Assembly (NCBI GenBank): GCA_964434115.1
Contig: CAYSSX010000005.1
Coordinates: 31,063-95,062, forward strand
DNA: 64,000 nt
From: an uncultured bacterium
GTDB taxonomy: Bacteria > Omnitrophota > Omnitrophia > Omnitrophales > Aquincolibacteriaceae
Direction of reading: 5' to 3'
Numbering within the stretch: the first letter of the stretch is position 1; every line of letters begins with the position of its first letter. A program made the translations under genes and the position numbers. The notes beneath the pieces are model-generated. The model was not told where the DNA came from, searched no databases, and worked only from the letters and a program-made list of their open reading frames with translations. Positions 8,609 to 29,391 of this stretch are shown here, one piece after another.

Positions 8609-8619
8609 AAGGAGACCTC

Positions 8620-9249: not shown

Positions 9250-9255
9250 GTTTCC

Positions 9256-10110: not shown

Positions 10111-10113
10111 GGT

Positions 10114-10875: not shown

Positions 10876-10962
10876 CATGGTAGGAGGCCTCCATATCTCA
10901 GGGTTAAAAGGAGCATTGCCAGTAAAGTGGCTGCCATGCAAAGGACGGCAAGGACGGGGTTG

Positions 10963-13440: not shown

Positions 13441-13703
13441 TGTTCTTCTCTCCCCGTTAAAGTGTAAAACTTAGGCGTAAGCAGAAACCGGACGAGCATC
13501 GTCGTGTATTTAGGCGGTTTGCCTTTTTTGTAAATTCGCAAAAGGCAGTAAACCGCTGTTACCGCTGCCAGATTCAGAAAAATGTTGGCTGAAAGCATGA
13601 AAACCAGCGCATACACAACCGCGATGATCAGAAAATCGAGGACTTCCAGTCCGAAGACCTTCTCGTTTTTCTCAAGGGACGTATGTGTTTTGACCGGTTT
13701 CAT
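13437..13703 (-). CDS. trbD: TrbD/VirB3-like small membrane protein
   Basis: 88 aa with a hydrophobic hairpin. Its stop overlaps the VirB4 start, and this coupling is conserved for VirB3-VirB4 pairs. Confidence 0.5.
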   Translation of the reverse strand: MKPVKTHTSLEKNEKVFGLEVLDFLIIAVVYALVFMLSANIFLNLAAVTAVYCLLRIYKKGKPPKYTTMLVRFLLTPKFYTLTGREEQ

Positions 13704-13704
13704 T

Positions 13705-14004
13705 TCAAAACCCCGTAAGCCGTTGAATGAGATCCAGAATTGCCCGCGCCATCATGATGATTGCACCGCCGAGTGCGGCAAAGACGCCCCGTCGAAGCCC
13801 CATTTCATTGCCAGTTGCCATGCTGATGCCTCCGATACAAACTCCGATCACAAGAATTCCGGGCCCGATGATTCGAATCAAAAAATCCGCAATCCCTTCT
13901 AAGAACTCTTCAAGCTGGCTTTCAGAATCAGAGAAAGCCCAGGCACACGCCGCCCGCATCAGGACAAAGCAAATAATCAAAAGCCACATTTTCTTGCGCA
14001 TCAT
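13705..14004 (-). CDS. trbC: TrbC/VirB2-like pilin
   Basis: About 100 aa. Signal peptide (MMRKKMWLLIICFVLMRAACAWA) followed by two hydrophobic helices rich in Gly, Ala and Ile. Confidence 0.5.
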   Translation of the reverse strand: MMRKKMWLLIICFVLMRAACAWAFSDSESQLEEFLEGIADFLIRIIGPGILVIGVCIGGISMATGNEMGLRRGVFAALGGAIIMMARAILDLIQRLTGF

Positions 14005-14036
14005 CGAAAACTCCTCTCGTATACAAAGGTGCACTT

Positions 14037-14366
14037 TCAGGGGTTTTTATAGCCGTCACTTAAAAAATTCTTCAGTTTCTTCTTCCCGGATTGAATGTGC
14101 TGAAAAACCGTGGGCTGGCTCAGCTTGAACATGGCCGAAATTTCAGTCTCCGAATAGCCGTCAATATGTTTCAGGGAAAAACAAAGCCGCTGGCGTTCGG
14201 TCAGGGTGCTCAAAGCCGCGTCCATGTCCATCCAGAAGACCAGAGCATCCCACTCCCGCACGGAAAGAATCCTCTCCCGGATAGAGGTCTCGAATTTTGA
14301 CAAGTGTTTACCGTTCTCGACGTTGTGGAAATCAACGCTGATCAGTTTTTTCCGTCTTTTCTTCAT
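14037..14366 (-). CDS. small sigma-70 region-4-like HTH regulator
   Basis: LTERQRLCFSLKHIDGYSETEISAMFKLSQPTVFQHIQSGKKKL resembles sigma-70 region 4.2 / ECF sigma C-terminal HTH. No region 2 is present. Confidence 0.45.
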   Translation of the reverse strand: MKKRRKKLISVDFHNVENGKHLSKFETSIRERILSVREWDALVFWMDMDAALSTLTERQRLCFSLKHIDGYSETEISAMFKLSQPTVFQHIQSGKKKLKNFLSDGYKNP

Positions 14367-14380
14367 GGCTATCCTTTCCT

Positions 14381-14418
14381 GAAAATAAAAAAGCCCGAAA
14401 GAGATAACTCCTTCGGGC
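14381..14418 (-). terminator. rho-independent terminator or attenuator after the coupling-protein gene
   Basis: On the minus strand, a GCCCGAA...TTCGGGC stem with a 12-nt loop is followed by TTTTTTATTTT. Confidence 0.5.
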
Positions 14419-14451
14419 CTCTATGGGTCTCTGGTTGTAAAAAAAACAGGG

Positions 14452-16089
14452 CTACATGATTTCTACCTGGGGAATATGGCCTATGTAATCAAGCTGGATC
14501 ACATCAATCACAAACGGCTGCTTGATAATCACAGCCGCTTCGCCCCGCGCCAGCTCGCGGATAAGATTAGGATTCAGCCGGAACTCTTCAACCTCCCGGA
14601 CACTCACCATGCCGGTAGGGTTTTTGTCGATCCAGTCCTCTTTCGTCTGGATGGTGTCCTTGAAGGTCTTCTCCGTTCCTGAAATCCGCGAGTAAGTCTC
14701 GATAGATGCCGGATCATCCTGCCGCATGACGATTTTGATGTTACAGTTTTCAAGCACTTGCTTAAGGAAATGATCTCCCGCCTTTTGAAGGTCTCCTAGA
14801 GATTGGTGAGCAATCGTAATTGCCAGATGCGCACCACGCGCCTTATTCAAAAATTCCACAAAGGGCTCATAGGCGAAATTAGAGAATTCATCCACAAAGA
14901 TCGGGAAGAAGAAGCGCTTATCTTCGGGAAGGTAAGCCTGAATGTAATTTGAAATCGTCTTCAAATCCTGAAGAACAATCCGGCCAAACCGCCGGGCGGT
15001 TTCCTCATAGCCCTGGGCATTGAGCTGAAAATAAACGATTTTTCGATTTAAATAGGCATCCAGCAGGTCAATTTTTGGTTTTTCATCCCGGAGAAGGCTG
15101 GCGAACTCGCTTTCTGAAATCATCCCCAGATCAGCAGTCATTCCGGCCAGGTCTTTTTGAAAGACCGTGTATTTTTTGAGGATATTTACGACCATTTCCT
15201 TGAGATGGGGATCGGTAATTCCTTTTGCCAGCTCGGACAGCTTCCGCTCATTGGATAAAAGATCATAAAGCTTCTCGAAGGTGATGACTTGCTTTGCCTC
15301 GCAAAGGCTTTTCATCAGCAAGAGCAGGGTTTCTTCCGCCTTCTTTTTGTAAAACTCTTCCGTCCAGATATTGGCGCTTATGATTTTGTCCTTAAGCTCA
15401 GTCGGATTCCCCCTTAAAAGCGGATTATAGGTATGGGACTTTTCTGGATACGCAAGGGAGAAGAAGAGAAAATCCTTTTCACGCCCCAGAGCTTTGACAT
15501 GGTAGTAAATTTTATTCAGAGTTTCGCGGTCGCCCTTGGCGTCCATGATCAGAGCTCCCGTGGCCCGCGAGATATCCTGGGCAAAAATCGGGAGGATAAG
15601 CGATTCTGTTTTCCCCGCGCCGGTAGAACCCACAACGTGGGTGTGCATCTTGCGCATCTCCCGAGTCAGGCGCAAATCCCGTTTGGACTTCATACTCCGC
15701 CCGAGAAAAACCGCATCTTCCTCTGTCTTCTTTCTGGATAAAGCCATGCTGTCTGCTGAAAAGCGATATTTCTTGGCTGGCTTCAAACCCTTCGTGAATT
15801 GCTCCTGCTTGAAAAAACTAAATGTCAGAAAAACAGGCAGCGTGACCACGATATATCCAGCGTAAAAAATCAACCCGAGCGGCAAGACCTCATGAGCGGT
15901 GATCGTTTTCCCAGCAGAGCCGGGATCACGGCTGATTCTGTCCAGCGCGGCCAGGATCAGTGCCGAAAACAGGCATGAGCCTCCCAAAGCCCAATAAAAT
16001 CCTGTTTTCAGACTGCTCACAATAACCCGGCTGAGAATCATAGGTATCTGGATGAAAATATTTTCCAGAAAATCCATCAAGAGCCTCAT
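14452..16089 (-). CDS. type IV coupling protein (VirD4/TraG/TraD family)
   Basis: Two N-terminal transmembrane helices, Walker A motif VVGSTGAGKT, and Walker B FVDEFSNF. 545 aa. Confidence 0.75.
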   Translation of the reverse strand: MRLLMDFLENIFIQIPMILSRVIVSSLKTGFYWALGGSCLFSALILAALDRISRDPGSAGKTITAHEVLPLGLIFYAGYIVVTLPVFLTFSFFKQEQFTKGLKPAKKYRFSADSMALSRKKTEEDAVFLGRSMKSKRDLRLTREMRKMHTHVVGSTGAGKTESLILPIFAQDISRATGALIMDAKGDRETLNKIYYHVKALGREKDFLFFSLAYPEKSHTYNPLLRGNPTELKDKIISANIWTEEFYKKKAEETLLLLMKSLCEAKQVITFEKLYDLLSNERKLSELAKGITDPHLKEMVVNILKKYTVFQKDLAGMTADLGMISESEFASLLRDEKPKIDLLDAYLNRKIVYFQLNAQGYEETARRFGRIVLQDLKTISNYIQAYLPEDKRFFFPIFVDEFSNFAYEPFVEFLNKARGAHLAITIAHQSLGDLQKAGDHFLKQVLENCNIKIVMRQDDPASIETYSRISGTEKTFKDTIQTKEDWIDKNPTGMVSVREVEEFRLNPNLIRELARGEAAVIIKQPFVIDVIQLDYIGHIPQVEIM

Positions 16090-17845: not shown

Positions 17846-18031
17846 ATGACTGCCAAATGGCTTACCATTGAACAAATCGCGGACTATCTCCAGGTTTCAA
17901 AGGAGAAGGTTTATAAACTCTGTCAACGCGGCCGCATGCCAGCATCAAAAGTCGGCGGGCAATGGCGTTTCGATAAAAAAGAGGTTGATGCGTGGGTAAG
18001 AAAACAGAGGCCAAAGAAGCAAACAGCATGA
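17846..18031 (+). CDS. xis: excisionase-family (MerR-like) HTH DNA-binding protein
   Basis: 61 aa. LTIEQIADYLQVSKEKVYKLCQRGRMPASKVGGQWRF matches the Xis/AlpA-type helix-turn-helix. First gene of the plus-strand block, and its stop overlaps the next gene's start (ATGA). Confidence 0.6.
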   Translation: MTAKWLTIEQIADYLQVSKEKVYKLCQRGRMPASKVGGQWRFDKKEVDAWVRKQRPKKQTA

Positions 18032-21018
18032 AATCGCCGATATTAAACTCCCCATATAAAGAACCAGCGCTTCATTTCAAGTCTGACGAACGTGGTGTTA
18101 CAGAAGAAATCATTGAATCCCGCCGCCCCAGCAGTTTCTACATCCCTGTCCCAAGAGCTAAGACCAAAGAAAAACAGCTTGAGTTAAATGTTGCCGAAGG
18201 CGCTTTCGGAAGTGAGCTCCAAAAAGAAAATGAATTCATCAATAAAATTCGAGAAAAAGTATCCGAATGGCGTAAAGCCGGTTATCAAGGACTTACAAAA
18301 AATTCCAGAGACCTCTTAGCCTATTGGCAGGACGAAACGCGGGAGAATAAATTGTTCTTCTGCCAGATCGAGGCGATGGAGACCTTGATGTATCTGACAG
18401 AAGTGGCTGAAAAATCTGGTGAAGCTGGAACCATTAACCAGATCAAACAGGCAAACGAAGGTGCAAACCCTGGGCTTTTCCGTTTGGCGTTTAAAATGGC
18501 AACCGGATCGGGAAAGACAGTAGTGATGGCAATGATTATTGCTTATCACACTCTGAATAAAATTCGGTATCCAATGGACGCCCGTTTCACGGATGCTTTT
18601 GCGATTATTACCCCAGGCATTACCATTCGGGATCGCCTGAATGTCCTTCAACCCAATGATCCCAATAACTACTACCTCAAGCGGGACATTGTTTCTTATC
18701 AAGATTTTGAACTGCTCCAGCAAGCCGTTGTTCTGGTTACGAACTTTCATCAGCTAGAGTTGCGTCAGAACCCTAGGTTTCAGTTAGGCGCGGTCATAAA
18801 AGCCGCTGGGCTAATGAAGGAAGAAGCTGTCAAAGAAACCCCAAGCACAATGGTTAACCGGGCTTTCCGCAGCCTTCTGAGCAAACCCCGTGTCCTTGTT
18901 ATCAATGATGAAGCTCACCATTGCTATCGGGAGAAACCCGAAACCATCAAGCTGACGGGCGAAGACCGGAAAGAGGCGGATGAAAACAACGAAGCCGCCC
19001 GTGTGTGGATCAGCGGACTTGAAGCGCTTTCTCAAAAAATGAGCGTTAATGCGATTATTGATCTTTCTGCTACGCCGTATTTCCTTCGGGGATCGGGCTA
19101 TTCTGAGGGAACGATATTCCCCTGGGCTATTTTTGATTTTTCACTGCTGGATGCTTTGGAATGCGGCGTTGTAAAAATCCCTCGCCTGCCGATTGAAGCG
19201 GATAACATCACGCATGGCGATATTCCTGAGTTCAGAAATCTTTGGATTCATGTTCGGGATGATCTGCCAAAGAAGGGGTTAAAGACCGGCGGCAAAGATT
19301 ACATTTCCGCCCATGTGCTTCCAACGAAGCTGCAAGAAGCTTTGGAATCGCTCTACGGAAGCTACGAAAAGTATCACAAGGAATACGAAAAGCAAAAGAA
19401 GCAGAATCCAGCGGTGATGCCTCCTGTGATGATTGTGGTCTGCAACAATACAGCGGTTTCCGAGCTTGTTTATCATTGGATCGCAGGTTTTGACCGCGAA
19501 ACCGCAAGCGGTAAAATTAAGATTGAAAAAGGCAACCTCGAAATTTTCAGGAACGAGGATGGAGTCCGCTTTTTGGATCGTCCTAATACTCTTCTGATTG
19601 ACAGCGCACAGCTTGAAAGCGGCAAAAAAATAAATCCCGAATTTAAAAAGATCTTCGCCAAGGAAATTGAAGACTTCCACAAAGAATATCGCCGCCGTTT
19701 TCCCGGACGCACGGAACCGGAAGATGAAGAGCTTTTGCGTGAAGTCATGAACACTGTGGGAAAACCCGGCAAGCTCGGAGAAAACATCAAATGCGTGGTG
19801 TCGGTTTCCATGCTTACCGAAGGGTGGGACGTTAACTCTGTGACGCACATTCTCGGCATACGGGCATTTTCAACGCAATTGCTTTGCGAACAGGTTGTGG
19901 GTAGAGCGCTCCGCCGGGTGGATTATAACGTCGGCCCTGACGGGTTAATGACGCCAGAATATGCCGAGGTCTATGGAGTTCCCTTTAGTTTCCTTAAAGT
20001 TGAAGGCGGGACAACCCCGCAACCACCCAAAGTCATTCATCGTGTCCATGCCTTACCTGAGCGTGAGAAGTATGAGATCACCTTCCCGCGATTGGAAGGC
20101 TACCGCTATGAACTAAACGAGACGAAGTTAGCGGCTCATTTCACCGAAGAATCAAAAATTGTTATCGAAAATGAACCCACGGAAGTTACTTCTGACGGTG
20201 TTATCGGTGAAGAAACCACAGAACGCCTTGAAAAGATCAAAGAACGCCGTGAAGGTGAAGTGGTTATCCGCCTCACCCAGGGGCTTTTGAAGCGCTATTT
20301 TACGGACGGCTATGGATCAGAAAAGTATTGGCTCACGCCGCAGCTTCAGCGGATTGCTTCGGAATATGTCAAAAAACAAGTGATTCTGAAAGACCGCATG
20401 GTGATTGGATACCTGACGGTTGGAACCTACTTCACCGGTGCTTTGACTAAAATTCATCAATCGATTGTGGCTGAAAACTTGGCGCACCAGAAAGACAAGA
20501 AGGTTCTTCCTATTCTAGCCCCTTACGATCCGGTTGGATCAACCCGGTATGTTGATTTCTTGACGACGAAACCGGTTCAAGAAACTGTTAAGAGCCATCT
20601 GAATTACGTTGTCGCGGACACGGAAGAATGGGAGCAAGGCGTTGCAAAGAGACTTGAGCAAATGCCCGAAGTTTTGTCCTATGTCAAAAACCAAAATTTG
20701 GGATTTACAATTCCCTATGAGCATCAAGGTCATGGACACCATTACTGGCCGGACTTTATCGTTAAGATCGAGATGAAAGACAAAACCACCCTGAACCTGC
20801 TCGTTGAGGTCACTGGAAAAAAAGATGATCGCAAGGCCATGAAGATTCGCACAGCCCGTGATTTTTGGGTTCCAGCGGTCAATAATATTGAAAAGTTCAG
20901 AAAGTGGGCGCTCATTGAAATTCAAGACATTCATGAAACCCAAGGGCTCATTCGGGCTGGATTAGCCAAGGGATTCGATAATCTGACAAAGGAACTGCCA
21001 TGCCTCGATCAAAAGTAA
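18028..21018 (+). CDS. res: Type III restriction enzyme Res-like SF2 helicase-nuclease
   Basis: Motif I GSGKT, motif II DEAH (VINDEAHH), motif VI QVVGRALRR, and a C-terminal PD..E.K-like segment (WPDFIVK...LLVEVTGKK). An alternative GTG start lies at 17992. Confidence 0.7.
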   Translation: MKSPILNSPYKEPALHFKSDERGVTEEIIESRRPSSFYIPVPRAKTKEKQLELNVAEGAFGSELQKENEFINKIREKVSEWRKAGYQGLTKNSRDLLAYWQDETRENKLFFCQIEAMETLMYLTEVAEKSGEAGTINQIKQANEGANPGLFRLAFKMATGSGKTVVMAMIIAYHTLNKIRYPMDARFTDAFAIITPGITIRDRLNVLQPNDPNNYYLKRDIVSYQDFELLQQAVVLVTNFHQLELRQNPRFQLGAVIKAAGLMKEEAVKETPSTMVNRAFRSLLSKPRVLVINDEAHHCYREKPETIKLTGEDRKEADENNEAARVWISGLEALSQKMSVNAIIDLSATPYFLRGSGYSEGTIFPWAIFDFSLLDALECGVVKIPRLPIEADNITHGDIPEFRNLWIHVRDDLPKKGLKTGGKDYISAHVLPTKLQEALESLYGSYEKYHKEYEKQKKQNPAVMPPVMIVVCNNTAVSELVYHWIAGFDRETASGKIKIEKGNLEIFRNEDGVRFLDRPNTLLIDSAQLESGKKINPEFKKIFAKEIEDFHKEYRRRFPGRTEPEDEELLREVMNTVGKPGKLGENIKCVVSVSMLTEGWDVNSVTHILGIRAFSTQLLCEQVVGRALRRVDYNVGPDGLMTPEYAEVYGVPFSFLKVEGGTTPQPPKVIHRVHALPEREKYEITFPRLEGYRYELNETKLAAHFTEESKIVIENEPTEVTSDGVIGEETTERLEKIKERREGEVVIRLTQGLLKRYFTDGYGSEKYWLTPQLQRIASEYVKKQVILKDRMVIGYLTVGTYFTGALTKIHQSIVAENLAHQKDKKVLPILAPYDPVGSTRYVDFLTTKPVQETVKSHLNYVVADTEEWEQGVAKRLEQMPEVLSYVKNQNLGFTIPYEHQGHGHHYWPDFIVKIEMKDKTTLNLLVEVTGKKDDRKAMKIRTARDFWVPAVNNIEKFRKWALIEIQDIHETQGLIRAGLAKGFDNLTKELPCLDQK

Positions 21019-23471
21019 AATCTCCTACAAACGCTGCGCCGGTCGCATCGTATAAACACGAGAACAAGCGCGCTCGAATTCCCACTCAAGAGGAATCCGA
21101 AAAACTCAGCCCAAGGGACAAACAGCCCGTTAAAAAGCGCTATGACTATGATCCCTCCCTTGATCCACAGCTTATCTGGTCTGGGAAAAAAGAAGCTGGC
21201 GCTCAATTTGAAGTAGCAACTGTTCCCATTTACGTCCAGGAAAAAATTGCGCCCGAGGCCATCATTGCTCGCCTTAAAGCTGGGCATACTGAAAACACGC
21301 AGATGCTTCTCTTTGGAGAGACCGCGCACGAACAGTTTACAAAAGCGGTTGATTTTTATAAACACGAGGATAACTGGCAGAACCGCATGATTCTCGGCGA
21401 TAGCCTTCTTGTAATGAATAGCCTTTTGGAGAAAGAAGGCATGCGTGGCAAGGTGCAGACCATTTACATGGACCCACCGTATGGAATTAAGTTTGGCTCG
21501 AATTGGCAGGTTTCGACTCGTAAGCGTGAAGTTAAAGATAATAAGTTAACTGATTTTGTTCGCCAACCAGAGCAAGTAAAGGCGTTTCGAGATACTTGGG
21601 AACTTGGAATCCATTCTTATCTTTCGTATTTGAGGGATCGTCTACTTGTCTCACGAGAGCTTCTGACTGAAAGCGGCAGTTGTTTTGTTCAAATTAATAT
21701 CGAGAATGTTCATATAGTGCGGAACTTAATGGAAGAAATTTTTGGCGCAAGAAATTTTGTGAGCATGATAAGTTTCTATAAAACAAGCGGTTTTTCTGGG
21801 AAGCATCTCGATTCTGTTTCAGACTATTTAATTTGGTATGCCAAAGATATCGATCATCTAAAATATCGTCAGTTATACACTCCAAAGGAACCTCCAGTTA
21901 ATGATGCGAATTTTCGGTTTGTCCTTTTGGCTGACGGAACGGTAAGAAAAATGACAGACGAAGAAAGGCAAGCCCCTCTTTCAATTCCATCAGGCGCTCG
22001 CATTTTTAGATATGATAATTTAACTTCTGATGGCGCTAGCGCAGACCCACAAGAATTTTTATTCAAAGGGAAAAAGTATCTTCCTGGATCGGGATTACAT
22101 TGGAAAACAACGATTGATGGATTAAAACGTCTTTCAGTTCTGGGTCGTATAGAGAAAGTTGGTGCCCAGTTGGCTTATGTTCGTTTTTGGGACGATTTTC
22201 CATTCACGCCTCGTGTAAATAGCTGGGATGATACGGCCACGGGAGGTTTTGGGGATGAAAAATACTATGTGGTGCAGACTACGGTCAAAACCATAGCTCG
22301 TTGTGTTTTAATGACAACAGACCCCGGTGATTTAGTGCTTGATCCAACCTGCGGTTCAGGCACAACAGCTTACGTTGCTGAACAATGGGGAAGACGTTGG
22401 ATAACTACGGACACATCTCGGGTTGCATTGGCGTTAGCGCGAACTCGCCTCATGACAGCTAAATACCCATTTTATAAGTTAAAGGAAGTGAAAAATCTTC
22501 GAGAAGGTTTTGAATGCAACGGGATTCCTCATATCACACTAAAATCCCTCGCTAAAAACGAAGAACCAGATCAGGAGATTATGTATGATCAGCCAGTGGA
22601 AGAAAAAAATATCGTTCGAGTAGCAGGCCCATTTACCGTGGAATCTTTATCTCCACATAGAATTTCTGATGCGCAGGAAATGGTTTCCTCGGAACGATTT
22701 ATAGAAACGATTGTTTCTAACTTACTCAAGGCGGGCGTTCAAACCGGCGAAAAAGGTGCTCGTGTCGAGTTTGTAAACCTTGATATTCTTCCGGGCGGCC
22801 CGGAAATTCAAGCCGCCGGTGAATACAAAACCGAGAATGGTCTAAAAAAGGTAGCCGTTTCAATCGGCCCCGAGTTTGGTAGCGTTGACGATGATTTTAT
22901 TAAAGACGCGGCCAAGATCGCCAAGAAGTTTGCCGATTTGCTTGTGGTGGCCGCAACATCATTCGATGCGTCTGCATTTTCCGTTCCTGCGGACATGAAC
23001 GGATTGCGGATTATGCGCGTTAAAATCAACCCCGATCTCTCGATGGGAGACCTTCTCAAGAAAACGGGTTCGGGCAATCTATTTTTGGCTTTTGGAGAAC
23101 CCGAAGTCAAAGTTAAGGAAACAAAAGAAGGTGTTGTTGTTGAAGTCGTCGGCGTGGATGTCTACGACCCGGTGAAGAGCGAAATTCGTTCCAGCGGATC
23201 AGGTGACCCCGAACACGACATTGCAGCCTGGTTCATCGATACCAATTACAACGGAGAAGCTTTCTTCGTCACGCACGCATATTTTTTGGGCGCAGATAAG
23301 CCCTACGAAAAATTAAAGAAGGCGTTGAAGGCAGATATTAATGAAGCCGCGTGGGATGAACTTTACTCTATTGTCTCCCGCCCCTTCCCTAAGCCCAAAA
23401 CCGGCAAGATTGCGATCAAAGTCATCAATCACTACGGCGACGAAGTGATGAAGATTGTGGATATTTCATAA
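21000..23471 (+). CDS. mod: beta-class N6-adenine/N4-cytosine DNA methyltransferase (Type III Mod-like)
   Basis: Motif IV DPPY (IYMDPPYG) lies about 300 aa before motif I (LDPTCGSGTT). This is the beta permutation, with the target-recognition domain between the two motifs. A further C-terminal extension of about 370 aa follows motif I. Confidence 0.75.
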   Translation: MPRSKVKSPTNAAPVASYKHENKRARIPTQEESEKLSPRDKQPVKKRYDYDPSLDPQLIWSGKKEAGAQFEVATVPIYVQEKIAPEAIIARLKAGHTENTQMLLFGETAHEQFTKAVDFYKHEDNWQNRMILGDSLLVMNSLLEKEGMRGKVQTIYMDPPYGIKFGSNWQVSTRKREVKDNKLTDFVRQPEQVKAFRDTWELGIHSYLSYLRDRLLVSRELLTESGSCFVQINIENVHIVRNLMEEIFGARNFVSMISFYKTSGFSGKHLDSVSDYLIWYAKDIDHLKYRQLYTPKEPPVNDANFRFVLLADGTVRKMTDEERQAPLSIPSGARIFRYDNLTSDGASADPQEFLFKGKKYLPGSGLHWKTTIDGLKRLSVLGRIEKVGAQLAYVRFWDDFPFTPRVNSWDDTATGGFGDEKYYVVQTTVKTIARCVLMTTDPGDLVLDPTCGSGTTAYVAEQWGRRWITTDTSRVALALARTRLMTAKYPFYKLKEVKNLREGFECNGIPHITLKSLAKNEEPDQEIMYDQPVEEKNIVRVAGPFTVESLSPHRISDAQEMVSSERFIETIVSNLLKAGVQTGEKGARVEFVNLDILPGGPEIQAAGEYKTENGLKKVAVSIGPEFGSVDDDFIKDAAKIAKKFADLLVVAATSFDASAFSVPADMNGLRIMRVKINPDLSMGDLLKKTGSGNLFLAFGEPEVKVKETKEGVVVEVVGVDVYDPVKSEIRSSGSGDPEHDIAAWFIDTNYNGEAFFVTHAYFLGADKPYEKLKKALKADINEAAWDELYSIVSRPFPKPKTGKIAIKVINHYGDEVMKIVDIS

Positions 23472-23502: not shown

Positions 23503-24768
23503 TTGAGATTGAGCACTCATGATCCAAGAAAAGTAGTTGAAGATTTACGCAACCATCTTGCCGCCCACGACAAACCCTTAATATTTCTTTTTGGCGCAGG
23601 AACGTCTAGTTCGATCAATATAGCTCCTCCACCTCCCGCTGGCACAAAACGAGACTATAAGCCGCTTGTGCCAGCTATTAAAATTTTGACCGACCGCTGT
23701 AAAGCCGCCGTGAAAAATTTAGGCGATGCTTTTGAAAAAGCTTGGGGTATTTTGGAATCAGAATGCAGCGATTGCAAAAGGCCGATCAACATTGAGAATA
23801 TTTTATCGAGAGTTCATTTTAAAATTGATGCGATAGGTAAAAGCGAAAAATTGCTTGGCCTTGAGAAGGCCGATCTTGAAAAATTAGAGACAACGATATT
23901 AAAAACAATCGCTGGGGCTGTTAGCCCCAAAGCAACTGACATACCTAGCAATATACCGCATGATGACTTTGCCACATGGATTAAGCGTGCAGCGAGAACC
24001 GCCCCTTTGGAAATTTTTACAACCAATTATGACATCCTGATTGAAAAATCGCTAGAAGCAGCGCACATTCCGGTATTCGATGGGTTTGTTGGTTCAAGTG
24101 AACCGTTTTTTTATGCTGATAGCTTGGATCGACCTGAAATCATTCCTCCATCTGGTTGGGTTCGTCTTTGGAAGATTCACGGATCGATTAATTGGAAAAT
24201 CGTAAAAAATAATCTGGATCAAAAAATCGTCCGGCATTCTGAACCGGTGCCGTCAGGAGAAATGATTCTTCCATCTCATAGGAAATATGATGAGTCGCGG
24301 AAGCAACCATACCTTGCATTATTAGACAGGTTATCCAACGTTATGAATCGTGAGCATGCTCTCTTAATTACATGCGGATATAGCTTTGGCGATGACCATA
24401 TTAACGCGATTATTTTCAATAATCTCGACAACAGACCAACAACCCATGTTATTTCGCTTCAATACGAAGATTTATCAGTGAATGGAACGATTGTGGAGTG
24501 GGCCAAAAAAAGATCCAATTTCACAATTCTAGGCCCCAATTCAGGGGTTATTTCAGGCCGATTCGGAACCTGGAGATTGATTCAGCCCGTGGATGATAAA
24601 AGCAGCTCTTTTATGGATTTTGCTTTTGACAGTAAAGCTTCTATGGAAGCTGGAACGTCAGCTGCTACGCCAACGGTTTCCGCAGACCATTTCTCAGGCG
24701 CTCTCCGATTGGGCGATTTCAATTGGCTTTGCAAATTTCTGAACACAATGGGACGAAAGACCGAGTGA
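23503..24768 (+). CDS. SIR2-family (SIR2_2) NAD+-dependent effector, as in the SIR2-HerA defence system
   Basis: Motifs GAGTS (LIFLFGAGTSS), TTNYD, and the catalytic-His motif KIHGS. TTG start. Confidence 0.7.
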   Translation: MRLSTHDPRKVVEDLRNHLAAHDKPLIFLFGAGTSSSINIAPPPPAGTKRDYKPLVPAIKILTDRCKAAVKNLGDAFEKAWGILESECSDCKRPINIENILSRVHFKIDAIGKSEKLLGLEKADLEKLETTILKTIAGAVSPKATDIPSNIPHDDFATWIKRAARTAPLEIFTTNYDILIEKSLEAAHIPVFDGFVGSSEPFFYADSLDRPEIIPPSGWVRLWKIHGSINWKIVKNNLDQKIVRHSEPVPSGEMILPSHRKYDESRKQPYLALLDRLSNVMNREHALLITCGYSFGDDHINAIIFNNLDNRPTTHVISLQYEDLSVNGTIVEWAKKRSNFTILGPNSGVISGRFGTWRLIQPVDDKSSSFMDFAFDSKASMEAGTSAATPTVSADHFSGALRLGDFNWLCKFLNTMGRKTE

Positions 24769-24772
24769 GTTA

Positions 24773-26563
24773 ATGGCTGGAAAGAACCCCACTTTAATTG
24801 GCCACGTTGATTCTGTAAATGGTGGCGTCGTTACAGTCCAACTTCTTGACCATATGCCCACCCTTGTTATGGTTAAGGGCCAGTCATATCGAATTGGCCA
24901 AATAGGCGCATTCGTTCGTATTCCTTTGGGCTACACACAGCTTTACGCTGTCTGCACCTTGGTAGGAGCTGCTGCTGCCCCTCAGAAAGATTCCCCTTTG
25001 CCCAATCACGGTCACAGATGGATTTCTGTCACTCTTTTTGGAGAATCAGTCGGAGATTCATTTGAAAGAGGCGTTAGCCAATATCCGACAATTCAGGATG
25101 AAGTTCATATTGTTACGCCTGATGATGTCAAAATAATTTATGGTTCAACCCTCCATGATAAAGCTATTACTGTTGGTCACATTGCTGCATCATCAGGAAT
25201 CGAAGGCAGATTAGATTTGGCAAGACTGGTTGCGCGCCATTCTGCTATTGTTGGTTCAACCGGATCGGGAAAATCAAACTTCGTTGCGGTGCTCTTAGAG
25301 GCTCTAGCTACGCAAGGGCTTAGCGCTTCTCGTGTTCTAGTCATAGATCCGCACGGAGAATATGCATCTTCCGTTGGCAAATACGGCTACACTTTTCGTG
25401 TAAATCCAGACAGGGCTAAGGGAGAAAAACCACTTCATGTCCCGTTCTGGGCTTTACCGTTCGATGAGCTTCGAGATATTGCATTAGGAGAAATGCAACC
25501 CGCAAGTGATTCGGCAATTAGGGATGAGATTAAGGAAAGAAAAAAAACCACGGCATTAACGCTGACCCCCAGGCCACCGGAGACCGCAATCACGGCAGAC
25601 TCACCTATACCATTTAATATCAGAAAGCTTTGGTTTGATTTTGATGATTTCGAGCGACAGACGTTCAATCAAAACCAAGGAAAAGATTTGTGCACGCCTA
25701 CCACGCGAGGTGACGCTGAAAAGCTTATATCCAATATTTATCCTAAAATTGGATTGGGCAGCACGGCGCCATTCGCAAATCCAAGCCCGAGAAGAATAAT
25801 GAAGCAATTGGAACTTCTCAAAAGCCGATTGCAAGATACCAGATTTAACTTTTTGTTTAATCCCGGGCCCGATTACACTCCAAACGCTGATGGCAAAACA
25901 TTAAAAGACCTTGATGCGCTTGTTCAAACTTGGATCGGTCATGACAAGCCCATAACGGTTCTGGACGTATCAGGAATGCCTTCAGAAATATTGTCTACGG
26001 TTGTGGGCACGATGTTGCGAATCGTTTACGACATTCTGTTTTGGGCAGCCGACCTTCCGGTTGGCGGGCGTAAGCAACCTTTGCTGATTGTTTTGGAAGA
26101 AGCGCATCTTTTTTTACCTGAAGGAAAAGACAGCCCAGCACATAGAACTGTCACAAAAATAGCTAAAGAAGGGCGTAAATACGGAGTGGGATTGAGCATT
26201 GTTACGCAACGTCCTACGGAAGTAGAGAGCACAACTTTGAGTCAGTGTGGAACTGTTATTGCGCTAAGGATTACAAATCCAAAAGATCGTGAAAAAGTCG
26301 CTTCGGCTATGCCTGATGATTTAGGTGCATTAGCAGGTATGTTGCCCTCATTGAGGACTGGTGAGGGCTTAGTTATTGGGGAAGCCATGCCGATCCCTTC
26401 ACGTATTCAATTTTATCGAGCAAACAACAAGCCCGTTGGAGGTGATCCGGATGTAATGGCGGCTTGGACTGCGCCTCGGCCGGACGGAAAGGACTATAAA
26501 AAGGCGCTTGAAAATTGGCGCCGGCAATCAACATTCAAAACAGGAGAAACAGAAAATGGTTGA
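24773..26563 (+). CDS. HerA-like ATPase (FtsK/HerA superfamily), partner of SIR2
   Basis: Walker A IVGSTGSGKSN, Walker B LLIVLEEAHLF. 596 aa, with a 4-nt gap after the SIR2 gene. Confidence 0.75.
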   Translation: MAGKNPTLIGHVDSVNGGVVTVQLLDHMPTLVMVKGQSYRIGQIGAFVRIPLGYTQLYAVCTLVGAAAAPQKDSPLPNHGHRWISVTLFGESVGDSFERGVSQYPTIQDEVHIVTPDDVKIIYGSTLHDKAITVGHIAASSGIEGRLDLARLVARHSAIVGSTGSGKSNFVAVLLEALATQGLSASRVLVIDPHGEYASSVGKYGYTFRVNPDRAKGEKPLHVPFWALPFDELRDIALGEMQPASDSAIRDEIKERKKTTALTLTPRPPETAITADSPIPFNIRKLWFDFDDFERQTFNQNQGKDLCTPTTRGDAEKLISNIYPKIGLGSTAPFANPSPRRIMKQLELLKSRLQDTRFNFLFNPGPDYTPNADGKTLKDLDALVQTWIGHDKPITVLDVSGMPSEILSTVVGTMLRIVYDILFWAADLPVGGRKQPLLIVLEEAHLFLPEGKDSPAHRTVTKIAKEGRKYGVGLSIVTQRPTEVESTTLSQCGTVIALRITNPKDREKVASAMPDDLGALAGMLPSLRTGEGLVIGEAMPIPSRIQFYRANNKPVGGDPDVMAAWTAPRPDGKDYKKALENWRRQSTFKTGETENG

Positions 26564-26768
26564 TATGCATTTTGTGGATTCATCTAATATCGAGGCCATA
26601 GGCTACGATCCAGCTTCGCAGGAACTGCACGTTCGCTTTTTGTCGGGAACAGAATATGTTTATCATGGTGTGCCACAGGAGGTTTATGACGAGTTGATGG
26701 CGGCTCCCTCAAAAGGAAGTTTTTTGAATAGAGCGGTTAAATCTAATTATCAATACTCTCAGAAGTGA
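26556..26768 (+). CDS. KTSC-domain protein
   Basis: SSNIEAIGYDPASQELHVRF.SG.EYVYHGVPQEVYDEL resembles the KTSC (lysyl-tRNA synthetase C-terminal-like) domain. Its ATG overlaps the HerA stop. Confidence 0.55.
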   Translation: MVDMHFVDSSNIEAIGYDPASQELHVRFLSGTEYVYHGVPQEVYDELMAAPSKGSFLNRAVKSNYQYSQK

Positions 26769-26774
26769 TGAAGA

Positions 26775-27542
26775 ATGTCTCAATATTATAATGGAAAGCG
26801 ATCACGTAATTTATTCGCACCAAAAAGCACGGAGCCTTTTAAATTAAGCCGTACAAAAGTCGATCTGTTTCTGTCATGCCCGAGATGTTTTTATCTTGAC
26901 CGCCGTTTGGGTGTAGGTCAGCCTCCGGGATTCCCATTTAGCCTTAATTCCGCAGTAGACACGCTTCTAAAAAAAGAATTTGATGCATATAGGGTGCGTC
27001 AAGAAACGCATCCTTTAATGAAAACATATGGGATTAACGCTGTCCCATTCCGGCATGAAAAAATTGAGGAATGGCGCGACGCCTTGCGAAGAGGGATTTC
27101 TTATTTGCATAAGCCGACAAACTTTATTGTGACCGGCGCAGTTGATGATGTCTGGATAACTCCGAACGGAGATTTGTTAATTGTTGATTATAAGAGCACC
27201 TCCAAAAAGGAGGCCGTTAGTTTGGATGCCGAGTGGCAAATATCTTACAAGAGGCAAATGGAATTTTATCAGTGGCTATTCCGAAGAAATGAATTCAAAG
27301 TTTGGCCTACCGGTTACTTTGTCTATTGCAACGGTTTAACTGATAAAGACAGTTTTGATAAGAAGCTTGAGTTTGACGTTAAAATTATTCCTTACGAGGG
27401 CAATGATAGCTGGGTAGAACCTGCACTGCTTGATGCACGCAAGTGTTTAGATGCGGATCAGATCCCCCAACCGCACTCCGATTGTGATTATTGCAGATAT
27501 TTTGCTTTGGTGAAAGACGCAGAAACGCAAAACAAAGCATAG
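26775..27542 (+). CDS. Cys-cluster PD-(D/E)XK nuclease (Cas4/RecB-family-like)
   Basis: N-terminal CPRC pair, GAVDD and IVDYK core motifs, QxxxY-like EFYQW, and C-terminal CDYC pair. Starts 6 nt after the KTSC gene stop. Confidence 0.6.
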   Translation: MSQYYNGKRSRNLFAPKSTEPFKLSRTKVDLFLSCPRCFYLDRRLGVGQPPGFPFSLNSAVDTLLKKEFDAYRVRQETHPLMKTYGINAVPFRHEKIEEWRDALRRGISYLHKPTNFIVTGAVDDVWITPNGDLLIVDYKSTSKKEAVSLDAEWQISYKRQMEFYQWLFRRNEFKVWPTGYFVYCNGLTDKDSFDKKLEFDVKIIPYEGNDSWVEPALLDARKCLDADQIPQPHSDCDYCRYFALVKDAETQNKA

Positions 27543-27668
27543 TAATCTGGGAATAAATTTCCGCCATTGTTGTTCCGCTGCCACCTTAAGAGCATTTTTG
27601 AATGAGAATTTTCTTTGAAAAAAGTTCATTTAATAATACAATTGCTCAATTACAAGACTGATAAGAAT

Positions 27669-29357
27669 ATGAAAAAAGCCTACATCTACGCCAGAGTATC
27701 GACCGCCGAGCAGAACAAGGGCGATATTACGTCCATAGAGAACCAGATTGAGACCTGTAAGCACTTTATAGCCATTAAACAGGCCGAGGGGTGGCAGCAT
27801 GTTAAAACGATCACAGACCCCGGTTTCTCGGGTAAAGATCTGGATCGCCCCGGCATTAAAGAGCTGATGGCCGAGGTTGCCCAGGGGAACGTGGATGTGG
27901 TCGTCACCTACAAAGTAGACCGGGTTAGCCGGTCGCTGATCAAGTTTTACGAGTTCAATAAGCTTCTCGAATCCCACAAGGTTGAATTCGCTTCCGCCAC
28001 CCAAAGCTTTGATACCTCCAGCTCGTCTGGTCGCCTGATGCTCAATATCCTGCTGAGTTTCGCGGAGTATGAACGCGAACTTATCAGCGAGCGAACAGCC
28101 GACAAAATGCAGGCTAATTTCGAGCGCGGAAAATGGGGCGGCGGATATGTGCCCTACGGTTATGAGCTTGATCCGGCAATAAAAGATTTAAAAGTTCATC
28201 CCAAAGAATCCAAAGCGGTTCGCTTAATGTTTGAATCCGTAGCCGCAGGTTTGACATTGGCGAGAACGGCGGACATTCTTCATGAAAAAGGACACCTTAC
28301 GAAATCCCGGATTGTGAAACGTCAAAACGGGAAAGAAGTAAACATGGGCGGAAGAAAATTCCGTGAGGACATTATCTTTCGGATGATCCGCAATCCGTTT
28401 TATTGTGGTTTTATGACGCACAACGGCAAGCTCGGAAAACATCGCTATGAAAGTATTATTCCGAAAACTCTTTATGATAAAGCCAACGCTTCCATGAAGA
28501 AAAAATCGCCTGACAATAACGGCGTTAAGATCAAGCCGAATGCAGACCGGCACACCCACCTTCTGAAAGGCATTCTGAAGTGCGATGACTGTGGCTGTTC
28601 TATGACGCCGGTGCCCAGCGGGAAGCGGGATAAAGACGGCAATCAATACCTATACTACGTCTGCACCGAGGTAAATCACTATAAGGACGCTAAGACCTGC
28701 AAGGTGCGGACTCTTCCAGCCCGGTTAATCGAAAACACCATGATTCACTATTTGAGGGATTTAGGGCAGAAACCCGAACTTCTGGCAGAGGTTATCAGAG
28801 CTTCAAACAAGGCGGCGGGTGGCGAGGTTAAGAACCTCAAGAAGGAAGAGGAACGGCTCAATAAAGCGGTTTTAGCCGCCACCGAAGAGATTAAGAACCT
28901 TATTCAGGTGATTAAGGCCAGTAAGAAAATCTCCCCGGAGATACAGGCGGAAACCGATGCTTTATCAGCCAAGAGGGATCAGCTGTCAGGTGAGCTTGAA
29001 AAGGTCAGAGTGGATTTAAACATTCACGCTTCCAAGCAGCTTGAAATGGAAACGATTCGAAAGAACCTGCTCCATTTCACAGACGTTGTGGATAAGCTCT
29101 CTTTGGAAGAAAAGAAGGAACTGATGTCCCTCATTTTGAAGGAAGTGAAAGTCTCGCGTGTTAACCACGAAAAAGGAAAGGCGCCAGCCGAAGCTGGCGC
29201 CTTCAATACAATGATACGAACTTCGTGGTTTCGCATTGTCGTGACAATTTACGCAATGCCTTCATTGCCTGTCACTTATGACGAACTCACTCAAAAGTTC
29301 GTATTTACTTCTAAATGGCTCCCCCGCGTGGGCTCGAACCACGGACAAGGTGATTAA
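27669..29357 (+). CDS. large serine recombinase (integrase)
   Basis: Resolvase N-terminal domain with catalytic Ser (YIYARVSTAEQ), a recombinase domain, a Cys-rich zinc ribbon (CDDCGCS...YYVCTE), and a C-terminal coiled-coil. The last 42 nt of the ORF overlap tRNA-Asn. Confidence 0.85.
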   Translation: MKKAYIYARVSTAEQNKGDITSIENQIETCKHFIAIKQAEGWQHVKTITDPGFSGKDLDRPGIKELMAEVAQGNVDVVVTYKVDRVSRSLIKFYEFNKLLESHKVEFASATQSFDTSSSSGRLMLNILLSFAEYERELISERTADKMQANFERGKWGGGYVPYGYELDPAIKDLKVHPKESKAVRLMFESVAAGLTLARTADILHEKGHLTKSRIVKRQNGKEVNMGGRKFREDIIFRMIRNPFYCGFMTHNGKLGKHRYESIIPKTLYDKANASMKKKSPDNNGVKIKPNADRHTHLLKGILKCDDCGCSMTPVPSGKRDKDGNQYLYYVCTEVNHYKDAKTCKVRTLPARLIENTMIHYLRDLGQKPELLAEVIRASNKAAGGEVKNLKKEEERLNKAVLAATEEIKNLIQVIKASKKISPEIQAETDALSAKRDQLSGELEKVRVDLNIHASKQLEMETIRKNLLHFTDVVDKLSLEEKKELMSLILKEVKVSRVNHEKGKAPAEAGAFNTMIRTSWFRIVVTIYAMPSLPVTYDELTQKFVFTSKWLPRVGSNHGQGD

Positions 29358-29391
29358 CAGTCACCTGCTCTACCAACTGAGCTACAGGGGA
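29316..29391 (-). tRNA. tRNA-Asn (anticodon GTT)
   Basis: Cloverleaf folded by hand: 7-bp acceptor stem with U1-A72, D-stem GCTC/GAGC, anticodon loop CUGUUAA, T-loop TTCGAGC, discriminator G, and an encoded CCA. Confidence 0.85.

What the first reader, a model, noticed from the sequence alone, without database searches (positions are those of the whole stretch)
23503..27542. SIR2-HerA cassette extended by a translationally coupled KTSC-domain gene and a Cys-cluster PD-(D/E)XK nuclease
The SIR2_2 gene and the HerA-like ATPase are 4 nt apart. Together they match the two-gene SIR2-HerA (Nezha-type) anti-phage system reported in defence-island surveys. Two more genes continue the same unit here. 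The KTSC gene's ATG overlaps the herA stop (ATGGTTGA), and the nuclease starts 6 nt after the KTSC stop. Such tight coupling implies coordinated synthesis. I know of no described SIR2-HerA variant carrying a KTSC protein and a nuclease, so this may be an undescribed four-gene defence architecture. The NADase effector could be joined by a DNA nuclease, with KTSC acting as an adaptor or sensor. An alternative reading is an independent two-gene module (KTSC + nuclease) inserted behind Nezha.
Basis: partly seen in the sequence, partly recalled or inferred. Interest (0 to 1): 0.78.

Follow-up and report, generated by a model that had tools for sequence, protein, structure and literature searches.

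The report
SIR2-HerA defence with split KTSC, nuclease
This is a Paenibacillus-type SIR2-HerA anti-phage system carried on a conjugative element; its small KTSC gene is the detached C-terminal domain of HerA, not a new adaptor, and the Cas4-like nuclease behind it is a recurrent but optional fourth gene whose role is untested.

Summary
Four same-strand genes lie at the stated coordinates: SIR2_2, HerA, KTSC and a PD-(D/E)XK nuclease. The junctions are 4 nt, an 8-nt ATGGTTGA overlap, and 6 nt.

The system is closest to the Paenibacillus sp. 453MF SIR2-HerA, not to E. coli Nezha. In that solved complex (PDB 8WIV, 8WLD) HerA carries a fused C-terminal KTSC domain. The window's KTSC model superposes on it (TM 0.91).

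A separate ~70-aa KTSC gene directly follows herA in 32 of 32 metagenome loci with HerA at least 40% identical. It is absent from all 47 loci with HerA at most 32% identical. KTSC is therefore a split HerA domain and a core subunit.

The nuclease belongs to a large, very conserved family that is mostly solitary: none of 80 genome loci has SIR2, HerA or KTSC nearby. One nuclease subclade sits 6-21 nt behind KTSC in six distinct loci. The HerA of those loci falls in two distant clades. Most SIR2-HerA-KTSC loci lack this family (0 of 23 unbiased loci).

The four-gene form is thus a real, apparently undescribed variant, with an optional nuclease of unproven function. The cassette is cargo of an integrative conjugative element at tRNA-Asn.

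The parts
7664..16089 (-). Conjugation (type IV secretion) genes of the surrounding mobile element. They include a CagX/VirB9-like gene (7664-8608), TrbL/VirB6 (9256-10110), a VirB4/TraC-like ATPase (10963-13440) and a TraG/VirD4 coupling protein (14452-16089).
   Evidence: Pfam hits. G+C is about 0.44-0.49 from 1 to about 29.4 kb and 0.50-0.56 beyond.
17846..18031 (+). HTH_17 (excisionase/AlpA-like) small DNA-binding protein at the head of the same-strand gene string.
   Evidence: PF12728, 5e-20.
17992..21018 (+). Type III restriction enzyme Res subunit (helicase plus a C-terminal endonuclease-like region).
   Evidence: ResIII 4e-10; weak PADLOC REase_III hits.
21000..23471 (+). Type III restriction-modification methyltransferase (Mod). 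It overlaps res by 19 nt and ends 31 nt before SIR2.
   Evidence: N6_N4_Mtase 7e-28; PADLOC MTase_III 3.8e-215.
23503..24768 (+). SIR2 NADase-type effector of the Paenibacillus type. The start is TTG at 23503 or 23509. Catalytic N175, D177 and H226 are retained.
   Evidence: PF13289 8e-19; PADLOC SIR2 8e-125. PDB 8w9l_A matches at 5e-55, with the TTNYD and HGSINW motifs aligned.
24773..26563 (+). HerA hexameric ATPase/translocase, with Walker A GSTGSGKS at residue 161 and Walker B LIVLEEAH at 438. It lacks the C-terminal KTSC domain that is fused in Paenibacillus HerA.
   Evidence: DUF87 2.5e-29 and HerA_C; PADLOC HerA 6e-156. It is 46% identical to PDB 8wiv_A, residues 6-586 against 11-604.
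26556..26768 (+). KTSC gene (70 aa): the detached C-terminal domain of HerA. It is translationally coupled to herA by an 8-nt ATGGTTGA overlap.
   Evidence: PF13619 5.8e-25. It matches residues 631-695 of 8wiv_A at 2.3e-11. The AF2 model (pLDDT 95) superposes on HerA chains of 8WLD and 8WOF with TM 0.91 and rmsd 1.1-1.3 A. It is present after herA in 32 of 32 related metagenome loci.
26775..27542 (+). Cas4/RecB-family PD-(D/E)XK nuclease (255 aa) with a conserved Cys cluster. It is an optional fourth gene, starting 6 nt after the KTSC stop.
   Evidence: PDDEXK_1 1.6e-14; TIGR00372 cas4 reaches only 23 bits against a cut-off of 65. Motifs are invariant. The AF2 model (pLDDT 81) matches RecE, the AdnAB nuclease domain, Cas4, MGME1, Exo5 and lambda exonuclease. 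The same subclade lies behind KTSC in L084, L088, L173, L176 and L178.
27669..29357 (+). Large serine recombinase, the likely integrase of the element. The probable start is ATG 27669, and a promoter-like site lies at 27615-27642.
   Evidence: Resolvase 1.3e-38, Recombinase and Zn_ribbon_recom; promoter scan.
29316..29391 (-). tRNA-Asn (GTT) at the right edge of the low-G+C element. It is overlapped by the 3' end of the recombinase ORF.
   Evidence: ARAGORN; G+C step at about 29.4 kb.

Best explanation
The four genes are defence cargo at the integrase end of an integrative conjugative element inserted at tRNA-Asn.

SIR2, HerA and KTSC together form one Paenibacillus-type SIR2-HerA abortive-infection machine. 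HerA forms the ATPase/translocase ring. KTSC is HerA's own C-terminal domain, encoded as a separate and translationally coupled gene, so it should be made at about 1:1 with HerA. It should sit where the fused domain sits in the solved complex, as part of the 'arm' that stabilises the ring. SIR2 is the NAD+-depleting effector.

The fourth gene encodes a RecB/Cas4-family DNA-end exonuclease that is co-transcribed with the system. It is most likely an optional accessory that works on the same DNA substrate as HerA. It could degrade DNA that the ring engages, as NurA does with archaeal HerA, or it could make or trim the DNA ends that switch on HerA ATPase and so the NADase.

Shown here:
- gene content, junctions, domains and catalytic residues;
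- the equivalence of KTSC to the fused HerA domain;
- the strict HerA-KTSC linkage in this clade;
- the recurrence of the nuclease behind KTSC.

Inferred, not shown:
- that KTSC binds HerA in trans;
- that the nuclease cooperates with the complex at all;
- which step the nuclease serves.
For: KTSC as a split HerA domain:
- PDB 8wiv_A (Paenibacillus HerA, 696 aa) aligns with the window's HerA over residues 11-604 (46% identity). It aligns with the window's KTSC over residues 631-695.
- The KTSC model superposes on HerA chains in the SIR2/HerA cryo-EM complexes.
- The authors call residues 576-696 a C-terminal arm domain that stabilises the split-spiral hexamer (PMC11472057).
- A ~70-aa KTSC gene lies -11 to +23 nt from the herA stop in 32 of 32 metagenome loci with HerA at least 40% identical. 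Ten of them have the same 8-nt overlap. None of the 47 loci with HerA at most 32% identical has KTSC, even by profile HMM at E<=10.
- The same triad is annotated on E. coli, Citrobacter and Rhizobium plasmids.

Nuclease linkage:
- One nuclease subclade (WIN, L084, L088, L173, L176, L178) lies 6-21 nt after KTSC. The genes on either side of the four-gene block differ between these loci.
- The HerA of these loci falls in two distant clades.
- Two further loci, L169 and the P0006 contig, place the triad directly upstream of what looks like a resident copy of the nuclease.
- L172 has a different PDDEXK_1 gene in the same slot.
- PDDEXK_1 is the commonest Pfam family among the 103 ORFs flanking 35 unbiased loci of the KTSC clade (6 hits). 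It is not among the 25 listed families for 149 ORFs flanking 44 loci without KTSC.
- The family also directly follows a truncated HerA fragment (L006), a distant HerA-like ATPase (L185) and a type III Mod-Res pair (L182).
- The fold matches DNA-end-processing exonucleases.

DNA ends activate the ATPase and license the NADase of an E. coli Sir2-HerA system (PMC13434337).
Against: - The Paenibacillus and E. coli systems protect as two genes, so no nuclease is required.
- None of 23 unbiased SIR2-HerA-KTSC loci with at least 800 nt after KTSC has this nuclease family.
- The family is overwhelmingly solitary. All 80 genome loci lack SIR2, HerA and KTSC, and they share no conserved neighbour.
- The nuclease and HerA/KTSC phylogenies disagree.
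- The window's KTSC is 96% identical to that of L169, which sits beside a nuclease only 55% identical. There is therefore no sign of an evolved KTSC-nuclease interface.
- In L169 the adjacency looks like an island landing beside a resident gene.
- Tight spacing also joins the plainly independent type III R-M system to SIR2.
- The flank census uses crude ORF calls and an imperfect control clade.
- No interaction or activity was tested.
Confidence: 0.6

Rival explanations
1. Three-gene system plus an unrelated neighbour. SIR2-HerA-KTSC is complete on its own. The nuclease is then an independent single-gene function, such as repair, recombination or a stand-alone defence or anti-plasmid nuclease. 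It would lie next to the system only because defence and cargo genes pile up and are shuffled in mobile-element hotspots.
For: The family is solitary and in variable context in all 80 genomes. It is absent from 23 of 23 unbiased loci of the KTSC clade. Its phylogeny disagrees with that of HerA and KTSC. L169 and the P0006 contig look like insertions beside a resident copy. In L182 it is just as tightly packed behind a type III R-M pair. The type III R-M of the window is itself only 31 nt from SIR2.
Against: The same nuclease subclade sits at the same position (6-21 nt after KTSC, same strand) in six distinct loci. Their outer flanks differ and their HerA belongs to two clades. Further independent juxtapositions exist (L169, the P0006 contig, L172, L185, L006). 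PDDEXK_1 is the top flanking family in the KTSC clade but not in the control.
Confidence: 0.35
2. KTSC is an adaptor or sensor that recruits the nuclease to HerA, so that KTSC and the nuclease together extend a two-gene system into a new four-gene machine.
For: The herA-KTSC and KTSC-nuclease junctions are tight. Iyer et al. 2022 mention, as an unpublished observation, HerA coupled with a KTSC protein and an endoDNase (PMC9503650).
Against: KTSC is present in every sampled locus of this HerA clade that has sequence beyond herA (32 of 32 metagenome loci, plus all loci found by other routes), whether or not a nuclease follows. It is fused to HerA in a system that has no nuclease. The window's KTSC is nearly identical (90-96%) to KTSC in loci with a different nuclease or none.
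Confidence: 0.1
3. An independent two-gene KTSC + nuclease module inserted behind a canonical two-gene SIR2-HerA system.
For: Only the 6-nt KTSC-nuclease spacing.
Against: KTSC was never found beside the nuclease without HerA where the upstream sequence is available. None of the 80 genome loci and none of the 10 viral loci has it. KTSC always follows herA in this clade. KTSC co-varies with HerA, not with the nuclease.
Confidence: 0.02

Closest known systems
SIR2-HerA of Paenibacillus sp. 453MF (validated by Gao et al. 2020, from my own knowledge; cryo-EM 8WIV, 8WLD, 8WOF and 8W9L; PMC11472057)
   Same: SIR2 matches at 5e-55 and keeps the N-D-H catalytic residues. HerA is 46% identical over 576 columns, with Walker A and B. 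The KTSC fold is the same as HerA residues 631-695.
   Different: Here KTSC is a separate gene overlapping the herA stop, not a fused domain. A Cas4-like nuclease gene follows. The published system is described and tested as two genes.
E. coli Nezha and the E. coli Sir2-HerA types I-III (8J4U; PMC13434337)
   Same: The same two-component logic: a SIR2 NADase plus a HerA ATPase, abortive infection, and DNA-end-stimulated ATPase gating the NADase.
   Different: Only distant sequence similarity (HerA 1e-24, SIR2 7e-9). Neither KTSC nor any accessory gene is mentioned in that paper.
HerA + KTSC + endoDNase variants noted by Iyer, Burroughs, Anantharaman and Aravind 2022 (PMC9503650, 'unpublished observations')
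   Same: HerA-like ATPase genes coupled to a KTSC-domain gene and to a DNase.
   Different: There the endoDNase is said to replace the sirtuin, and the two are called mutually exclusive. Here SIR2 and a nuclease are both present, and the nuclease lies 3' of KTSC rather than in the effector position.
Archaeal HerA-NurA end-resection machine and DUF4297-HerA defence systems (from my own knowledge; 4D2I and 8YHO appear as HerA matches)
   Same: A HerA ring partnered with a nuclease that acts on the DNA the ring handles.
   Different: NurA and DUF4297 are unrelated to this RecB/Cas4-family protein. No interaction has been shown here.
Cas4/RecB-family exonucleases (Cas4 SSO0001 4IC1, type I-C Cas4 8D3L, AdnAB/AddAB nuclease domains, RecE, MGME1, Exo5, Argonaute-associated ACE1 9IAB/9IAC)
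   Same: The PD-(D/E)XK core with D...D-x-K...Q-x3-Y motifs, conserved cysteines, and top Foldseek matches (probability 1.0, TM 0.40-0.45).
   Different: It scores below the Cas4 equivalog cut-off (23 bits against 65). The cysteines are arranged CxxC...CxxC rather than C...CxxCx5C. The PDB sequence search found no significant match (best E 0.025).

Membership tests
SIR2-HerA anti-phage system, Paenibacillus sp. 453MF type | A SIR2_2-domain protein with the catalytic N, D and H | tested here: met
   PF13289 8e-19; PADLOC SIR2 8e-125. N175, D177 and H226 align with N163, D165 and H212 of 8w9l_A.
SIR2-HerA anti-phage system, Paenibacillus sp. 453MF type | A HerA/FtsK-superfamily ATPase with Walker A and B, encoded directly after SIR2 | tested here: met
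   DUF87 and HerA_C; PADLOC HerA 6e-156; 46% identity to 8wiv_A; 4-nt gap from SIR2.
SIR2-HerA anti-phage system, Paenibacillus sp. 453MF type | HerA C-terminal arm ending in a KTSC-fold domain | tested here: met
   Present, but as a separate 70-aa gene. It matches residues 631-695 of 8wiv_A and superposes on 8WLD and 8WOF with TM 0.91.
SIR2-HerA anti-phage system, Paenibacillus sp. 453MF type | Phage protection, NAD+ depletion and assembly of a SIR2-HerA supercomplex | not testable with these tools
   These require plaque assays, NADase assays and purification.
Nezha (E. coli SIR2-HerA, 8J4U) | Close sequence relationship to the EcSIR2 and EcHerA lineage | tested here: not met
   HerA 1.2e-24 and SIR2 7e-9 to 8J4U, against 7.8e-149 and 5.1e-55 to the Paenibacillus proteins.
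KTSC domain (PF13619) | Profile match above the gathering score, and the KTSC fold | tested here: met
   87.2 bits against a cut-off of 25. The AF2 model (pLDDT 95) matches the KTSC crystal structures 7X8C and 4RGI with TM 0.92-0.95.
Cas4 (TIGR00372 equivalog) | Score above the curated cut-off | tested here: not met
   23 bits against a cut-off of 65. PADLOC Cas4 models match only at 1e-6 to 3e-4.
Cas4 (TIGR00372 equivalog) | Location next to cas1/cas2 or a CRISPR array | not tested
   No cas gene appeared among the ORFs examined at 17.8-29.4 kb, but no CRISPR-array search was run.
RecB/Cas4-like PD-(D/E)XK nuclease superfamily (PDDEXK_1) | Profile match above the gathering score, with the D, (D/E)xK and QxxxY motifs | tested here: met
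   54.9 bits against 22. D124/D125, D138-Y-K140 and Q161...Y165 are invariant in 24 sequences. Foldseek matches RecE, AdnAB, Cas4, MGME1 and Exo5.
RecB/Cas4-like PD-(D/E)XK nuclease superfamily (PDDEXK_1) | A four-cysteine Fe-S cluster 'staple' (one N-terminal Cys plus CxxCx5C) | tested here: inconclusive
   The invariant cysteines are C35-x2-C38 and C237-x2-C240, plus C185 and the nearly invariant C224. This is a different arrangement, and the bound metal is unknown.
Integrative conjugative element | Type IV secretion and coupling-protein genes, a site-specific recombinase at one end, insertion at a tRNA, and atypical composition | tested here: met
   TraG/VirD4, VirB4/TraC, TrbL and CagX; large serine recombinase; tRNA-Asn at 29316-29391; G+C step. 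The left end is not defined, and no att repeat was found.

The most novel reading that the evidence does not exclude
The Cas4/RecB-like nuclease is a true fourth subunit or client of the SIR2-HerA-KTSC ring. It would give a HerA-NurA-like DNA-end-resecting defence complex that couples degradation of phage DNA to NAD+ depletion. It would have been recruited several times independently, which contradicts the proposed mutual exclusivity of sirtuin and DNase effectors on HerA platforms.
Probability: 0.25. Interest if true: 0.7.

Novelty: new variant of a known kind. Interest (0 to 1): 0.5.

Why it matters
SIR2-HerA is under active structural and mechanistic study and is treated everywhere as a two-gene system. 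Three points follow from this work.

1. In the Paenibacillus-type clade the last HerA domain is usually a separate small gene. This includes plasmids of E. coli, Klebsiella, Citrobacter and Rhizobium. Two-gene detection rules, and two-gene clones taken from such loci, may leave out a subunit.

2. The fused and split forms offer a natural experiment on what the HerA 'arm' KTSC domain does.

3. A recurrent four-gene variant with a DNA-end exonuclease gives a direct way to test whether DNA-end processing feeds the HerA ATPase to NADase switch reported for E. coli systems. It also tests whether sirtuin and DNase effectors can share one HerA platform.

If the nuclease proves unrelated, the locus is an ordinary defence island on a conjugative element.

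Tried and rejected
- Attachment-site repeats between 16.0 and 29.7 kb: only short chance-like repeats were found. The left end of the element stays undefined.
- Promoter and terminator scan of 17.0-29.6 kb: counts were close to the shuffled expectation. The only useful hint is a promoter-like site before the recombinase.
- PDB sequence search with the nuclease profile: nothing significant, best E 0.025. The fold search was needed.
- Viral-contig scan with the L084-type HerA: no relatives.
- Viral-contig scan with the nuclease: only 10 contigs, none with KTSC.
- Naming the organism by exact-sequence look-up: no name was returned. The closest HerA cluster representative is from an Omnitrophota MAG.
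- The 2026 E. coli Sir2-HerA classification paper does not mention KTSC or accessory genes. I could not tell whether any of its types belongs to this clade.
- The E. coli C5 plasmid triad occurs in only 1 of 5426 complete E. coli genomes at the DNA level.
- Rejected: KTSC as a tRNA/RNA-binding sensor, an idea taken from its lysyl-tRNA synthetase name. Its structural place in the HerA complex explains it better.
- Rejected: the nuclease as part of a fixed mobile-element backbone. The genes downstream of it differ in every locus (recombinase, HTH + resolvase, PLD, SRAP).

Full report
**Observation.** The region holds four same-strand ORFs exactly as described.
- SIR2_2 is 23503-24768. Its TTG start is ambiguous between 23503 and 23509.
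- HerA is 24773-26563.
- KTSC is 26556-26768 (70 aa).
- The PD-(D/E)XK nuclease is 26775-27542.

Reading the junctions confirms three things: a 4-nt SIR2-herA gap; an 8-nt ATGGTTGA overlap of the KTSC start with the herA stop, with AGGAG upstream; and a 6-nt KTSC-nuclease gap. Pfam and PADLOC support all four domains well above threshold. SIR2 keeps N175, D177 and H226. HerA keeps Walker A and B. The nuclease keeps D124/D125, D138-x-K140, Q161-x3-Y165 and a conserved set of cysteines.

**Setting.** The cassette lies in a low-G+C stretch that ends at about 29.4 kb. Upstream on the same strand are an HTH_17 gene and a type III res-mod pair; mod ends 31 nt before SIR2. Further upstream are type IV secretion and coupling-protein genes. 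Downstream, after 126 nt and a promoter-like site, is a large serine recombinase whose ORF runs into tRNA-Asn. This is defence cargo at the integrase end of an integrative conjugative element. Tight spacing therefore also links a plainly independent R-M system to SIR2, so spacing alone is weak evidence for a functional unit.

**What KTSC is.** A PDB sequence search gave the decisive result. The 696-aa HerA of Paenibacillus sp. 453MF (8WIV and related entries) aligns with the window's HerA over residues 11-604 (46% identity). It aligns with the window's KTSC over residues 631-695. An AlphaFold model of KTSC (pLDDT 95) superposes on HerA chains in the SIR2/HerA cryo-EM complexes (TM 0.91, rmsd 1.1-1.3 A, 38% identity). 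It also superposes on the free KTSC proteins 7X8C and 4RGI. The structural paper calls residues 576-696 a 'C-terminal arm domain' that stabilises the split-spiral hexamer, and it never uses the name KTSC (PMC11472057). The window's SIR2 is likewise closest to the Paenibacillus SIR2 (5e-55) and far from Nezha (7e-9).

**How general the split is.** A metagenome scan with a HerA alignment returned 80 loci.
- Every locus with HerA at least 40% identical and with sequence beyond herA (32 of 32) has a ~70-aa KTSC gene -11 to +23 nt from the herA stop. Ten have the same 8-nt overlap.
- None of the 47 loci with HerA at most 32% identical has KTSC, even with a profile HMM at E<=10. About 41 of these have enough sequence after herA to show one.
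- The triad is annotated as SIR2 / ATP-binding protein / 'KTSC domain-containing protein' on plasmids of E. coli, Citrobacter and Rhizobium. Klebsiella plasmids are among the most frequent HerA matches in that search, but I did not open one.

KTSC is thus a core, split HerA domain, and translational coupling fits a 1:1 subunit. In the literature I could search, only Iyer et al. 2022 link KTSC and HerA, as an unpublished remark about variants in which an endoDNase replaces the sirtuin. The 2026 E. coli classification paper mentions no third gene.

**The nuclease family.** It is very large (more than 8000 clusters) and unusually conserved, 62-70% identical across Patescibacteria, Omnitrophota and other phyla. 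In 80 species-representative genome loci it never lies near SIR2, HerA or KTSC, apart from one truncated HerA fragment in L006. It has no conserved neighbour; the contexts are mostly housekeeping genes, with a few defence genes. It is rare in viral contigs (10 loci). Its model (pLDDT 81) matches RecE, the AdnAB nuclease domain, Cas4, MGME1, Exo5 and lambda exonuclease, which are DNA-end exonucleases. It falls below the Cas4 equivalog cut-off.

**Is the nuclease part of the system?**

For:
- Its closest relatives (71-79% identical) are almost all KTSC-linked. L084 (Bacteroidales), L088 and L173 (Omnitrophota), L176 and L178 show SIR2-HerA-KTSC-nuclease, or KTSC-nuclease on short contigs, with 13-21 nt gaps. 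The R-M genes upstream and the genes downstream differ between loci.
- In a nuclease tree these loci and the window form one clade.
- In a HerA tree L084, L088 and L173 form one tight clade, while the window sits in another with L169, L170 and L172.
- Within the window's own HerA clade (90-92% identical) the slot after KTSC varies. L169 has a nuclease only 55% identical, sitting in its native Omnitrophota neighbourhood. L172 has a distant PDDEXK_1 gene. L170 has an unknown 162-aa gene, with a DUF2779/Cas4-like gene upstream.
- The P0006 contig is another case of the triad lying beside a probably resident copy.
- Other RecB-like nucleases flank further triads (L090, L101, L104, L181).
- PDDEXK_1 is the top Pfam family among the flanking ORFs of 35 unbiased loci (6 of 103). 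It is not among the 25 listed families in the control set.
- The family also follows a distant HerA-like gene (L185) and a type III Mod-Res pair (L182) with gaps of 0-4 nt.

Against:
- None of 23 unbiased triads with room has this family.
- The characterised systems work without it.
- The phylogenies disagree, and KTSC shows no adaptation to the nuclease.
- At least two adjacencies look like insertion beside a resident gene.

**Conclusion.** The interpretation needs two changes. KTSC is the detached C-terminal domain of HerA, already visible as a fused domain in a solved SIR2-HerA complex, and not a new adaptor. The independent 'KTSC + nuclease module' reading is refuted. The four-gene SIR2-HerA-KTSC-nuclease block is real, recurrent and, as far as I could find, undescribed. 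But the nuclease is optional and its cooperation with the complex is only inferred.

The most likely role is a DNA-end exonuclease acting with the HerA ring, either as a second effector or as a processor of the DNA ends that activate HerA. I put this at about 0.5-0.6, against about 0.35 for an unrelated neighbour. I rate the finding a new variant of a known kind, of moderate interest.

Noticed in passing
window 7664-16089 (- strand), 27669-29391: The low-G+C stretch (1 to about 29.4 kb) carries type IV secretion and coupling-protein genes. It ends with a large serine recombinase whose ORF overlaps tRNA-Asn. This is an integrative conjugative element with defence cargo at its integrase end. The left boundary and the att sites were not found.
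   Followed up: partly
L001-L080 (genome contigs); P0002-P0120: The 250-aa Cys-cluster PD-(D/E)XK family is 62-70% identical across Patescibacteria, Omnitrophota, Planctomycetia and MAGs labelled proteobacterial. It has no conserved neighbour. Such conservation in a solitary gene of unknown role is unexplained.
   Followed up: partly
L169 5560-14637: In an Omnitrophota MAG, an R-M + SIR2-HerA-KTSC island (HerA 92% identical to the window's) lies between SerRS and a resident nuclease. Relatives of the genes that follow that nuclease here (M50 peptidase, holin-like) are found next to solitary nucleases in other Omnitrophota (L023, L025, L029, L037). The island appears to have landed directly upstream of the resident gene. 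The P0006 and P0035 contigs (nuclease next to SRAP) suggest a second such case.
   Followed up: partly
L006 7574-7990: A 138-aa ORF that is only the C-terminal part of a HerA-type ATPase (Walker B and sensor motifs) sits about 10 nt upstream of a solitary nuclease, with no SIR2 or KTSC. It may be a decayed HerA-nuclease pair.
   Followed up: partly
L182 3-5753; L185 2-2384 (IMG/VR contigs): In viral contigs the same nuclease family directly follows a type III Mod-Res pair (42% and 31% identical to the window's Mod and Res; 0-nt gap). It also follows a distant HerA-like ATPase (4-nt gap). This hints at a wider link with DNA-translocating defence ATPases.
   Followed up: no
L090 2311-3789; L101 5796-9188; L104 1288-2850; L170 3050-4531; L181 1-241: Other RecB-like nucleases lie next to several SIR2-HerA-KTSC triads. 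They include PDDEXK_1 + RNase_H_2 'TM0106-like' proteins, one fused to an SF1 helicase, and one DUF2779/Cas4-like protein. They occur upstream of SIR2 or downstream of KTSC.
   Followed up: partly
L179 (E. coli C5 plasmid A), L180 (Citrobacter freundii IncFII plasmid), L181 (Rhizobium johnstonii plasmid): Cultured bacteria carry annotated SIR2 / HerA / 'KTSC domain-containing protein' triads on conjugative plasmids. The plasmid search gave 363 records with a HerA match, many from Klebsiella, Citrobacter and Escherichia. These are ready material for testing whether KTSC is required.
   Followed up: partly
L170 8083-8571: A 162-aa ORF with no Pfam, NCBIfam or PHROG match occupies the slot after KTSC in the locus whose HerA is 92% identical to the window's.
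   Followed up: no
window 23442-23471 and 26762-26791: The 3' end of mod and the KTSC/nuclease junction share GAAGTGATGAAGA (a 30-nt repeat, 77% identical). This is probably chance.
   Followed up: no
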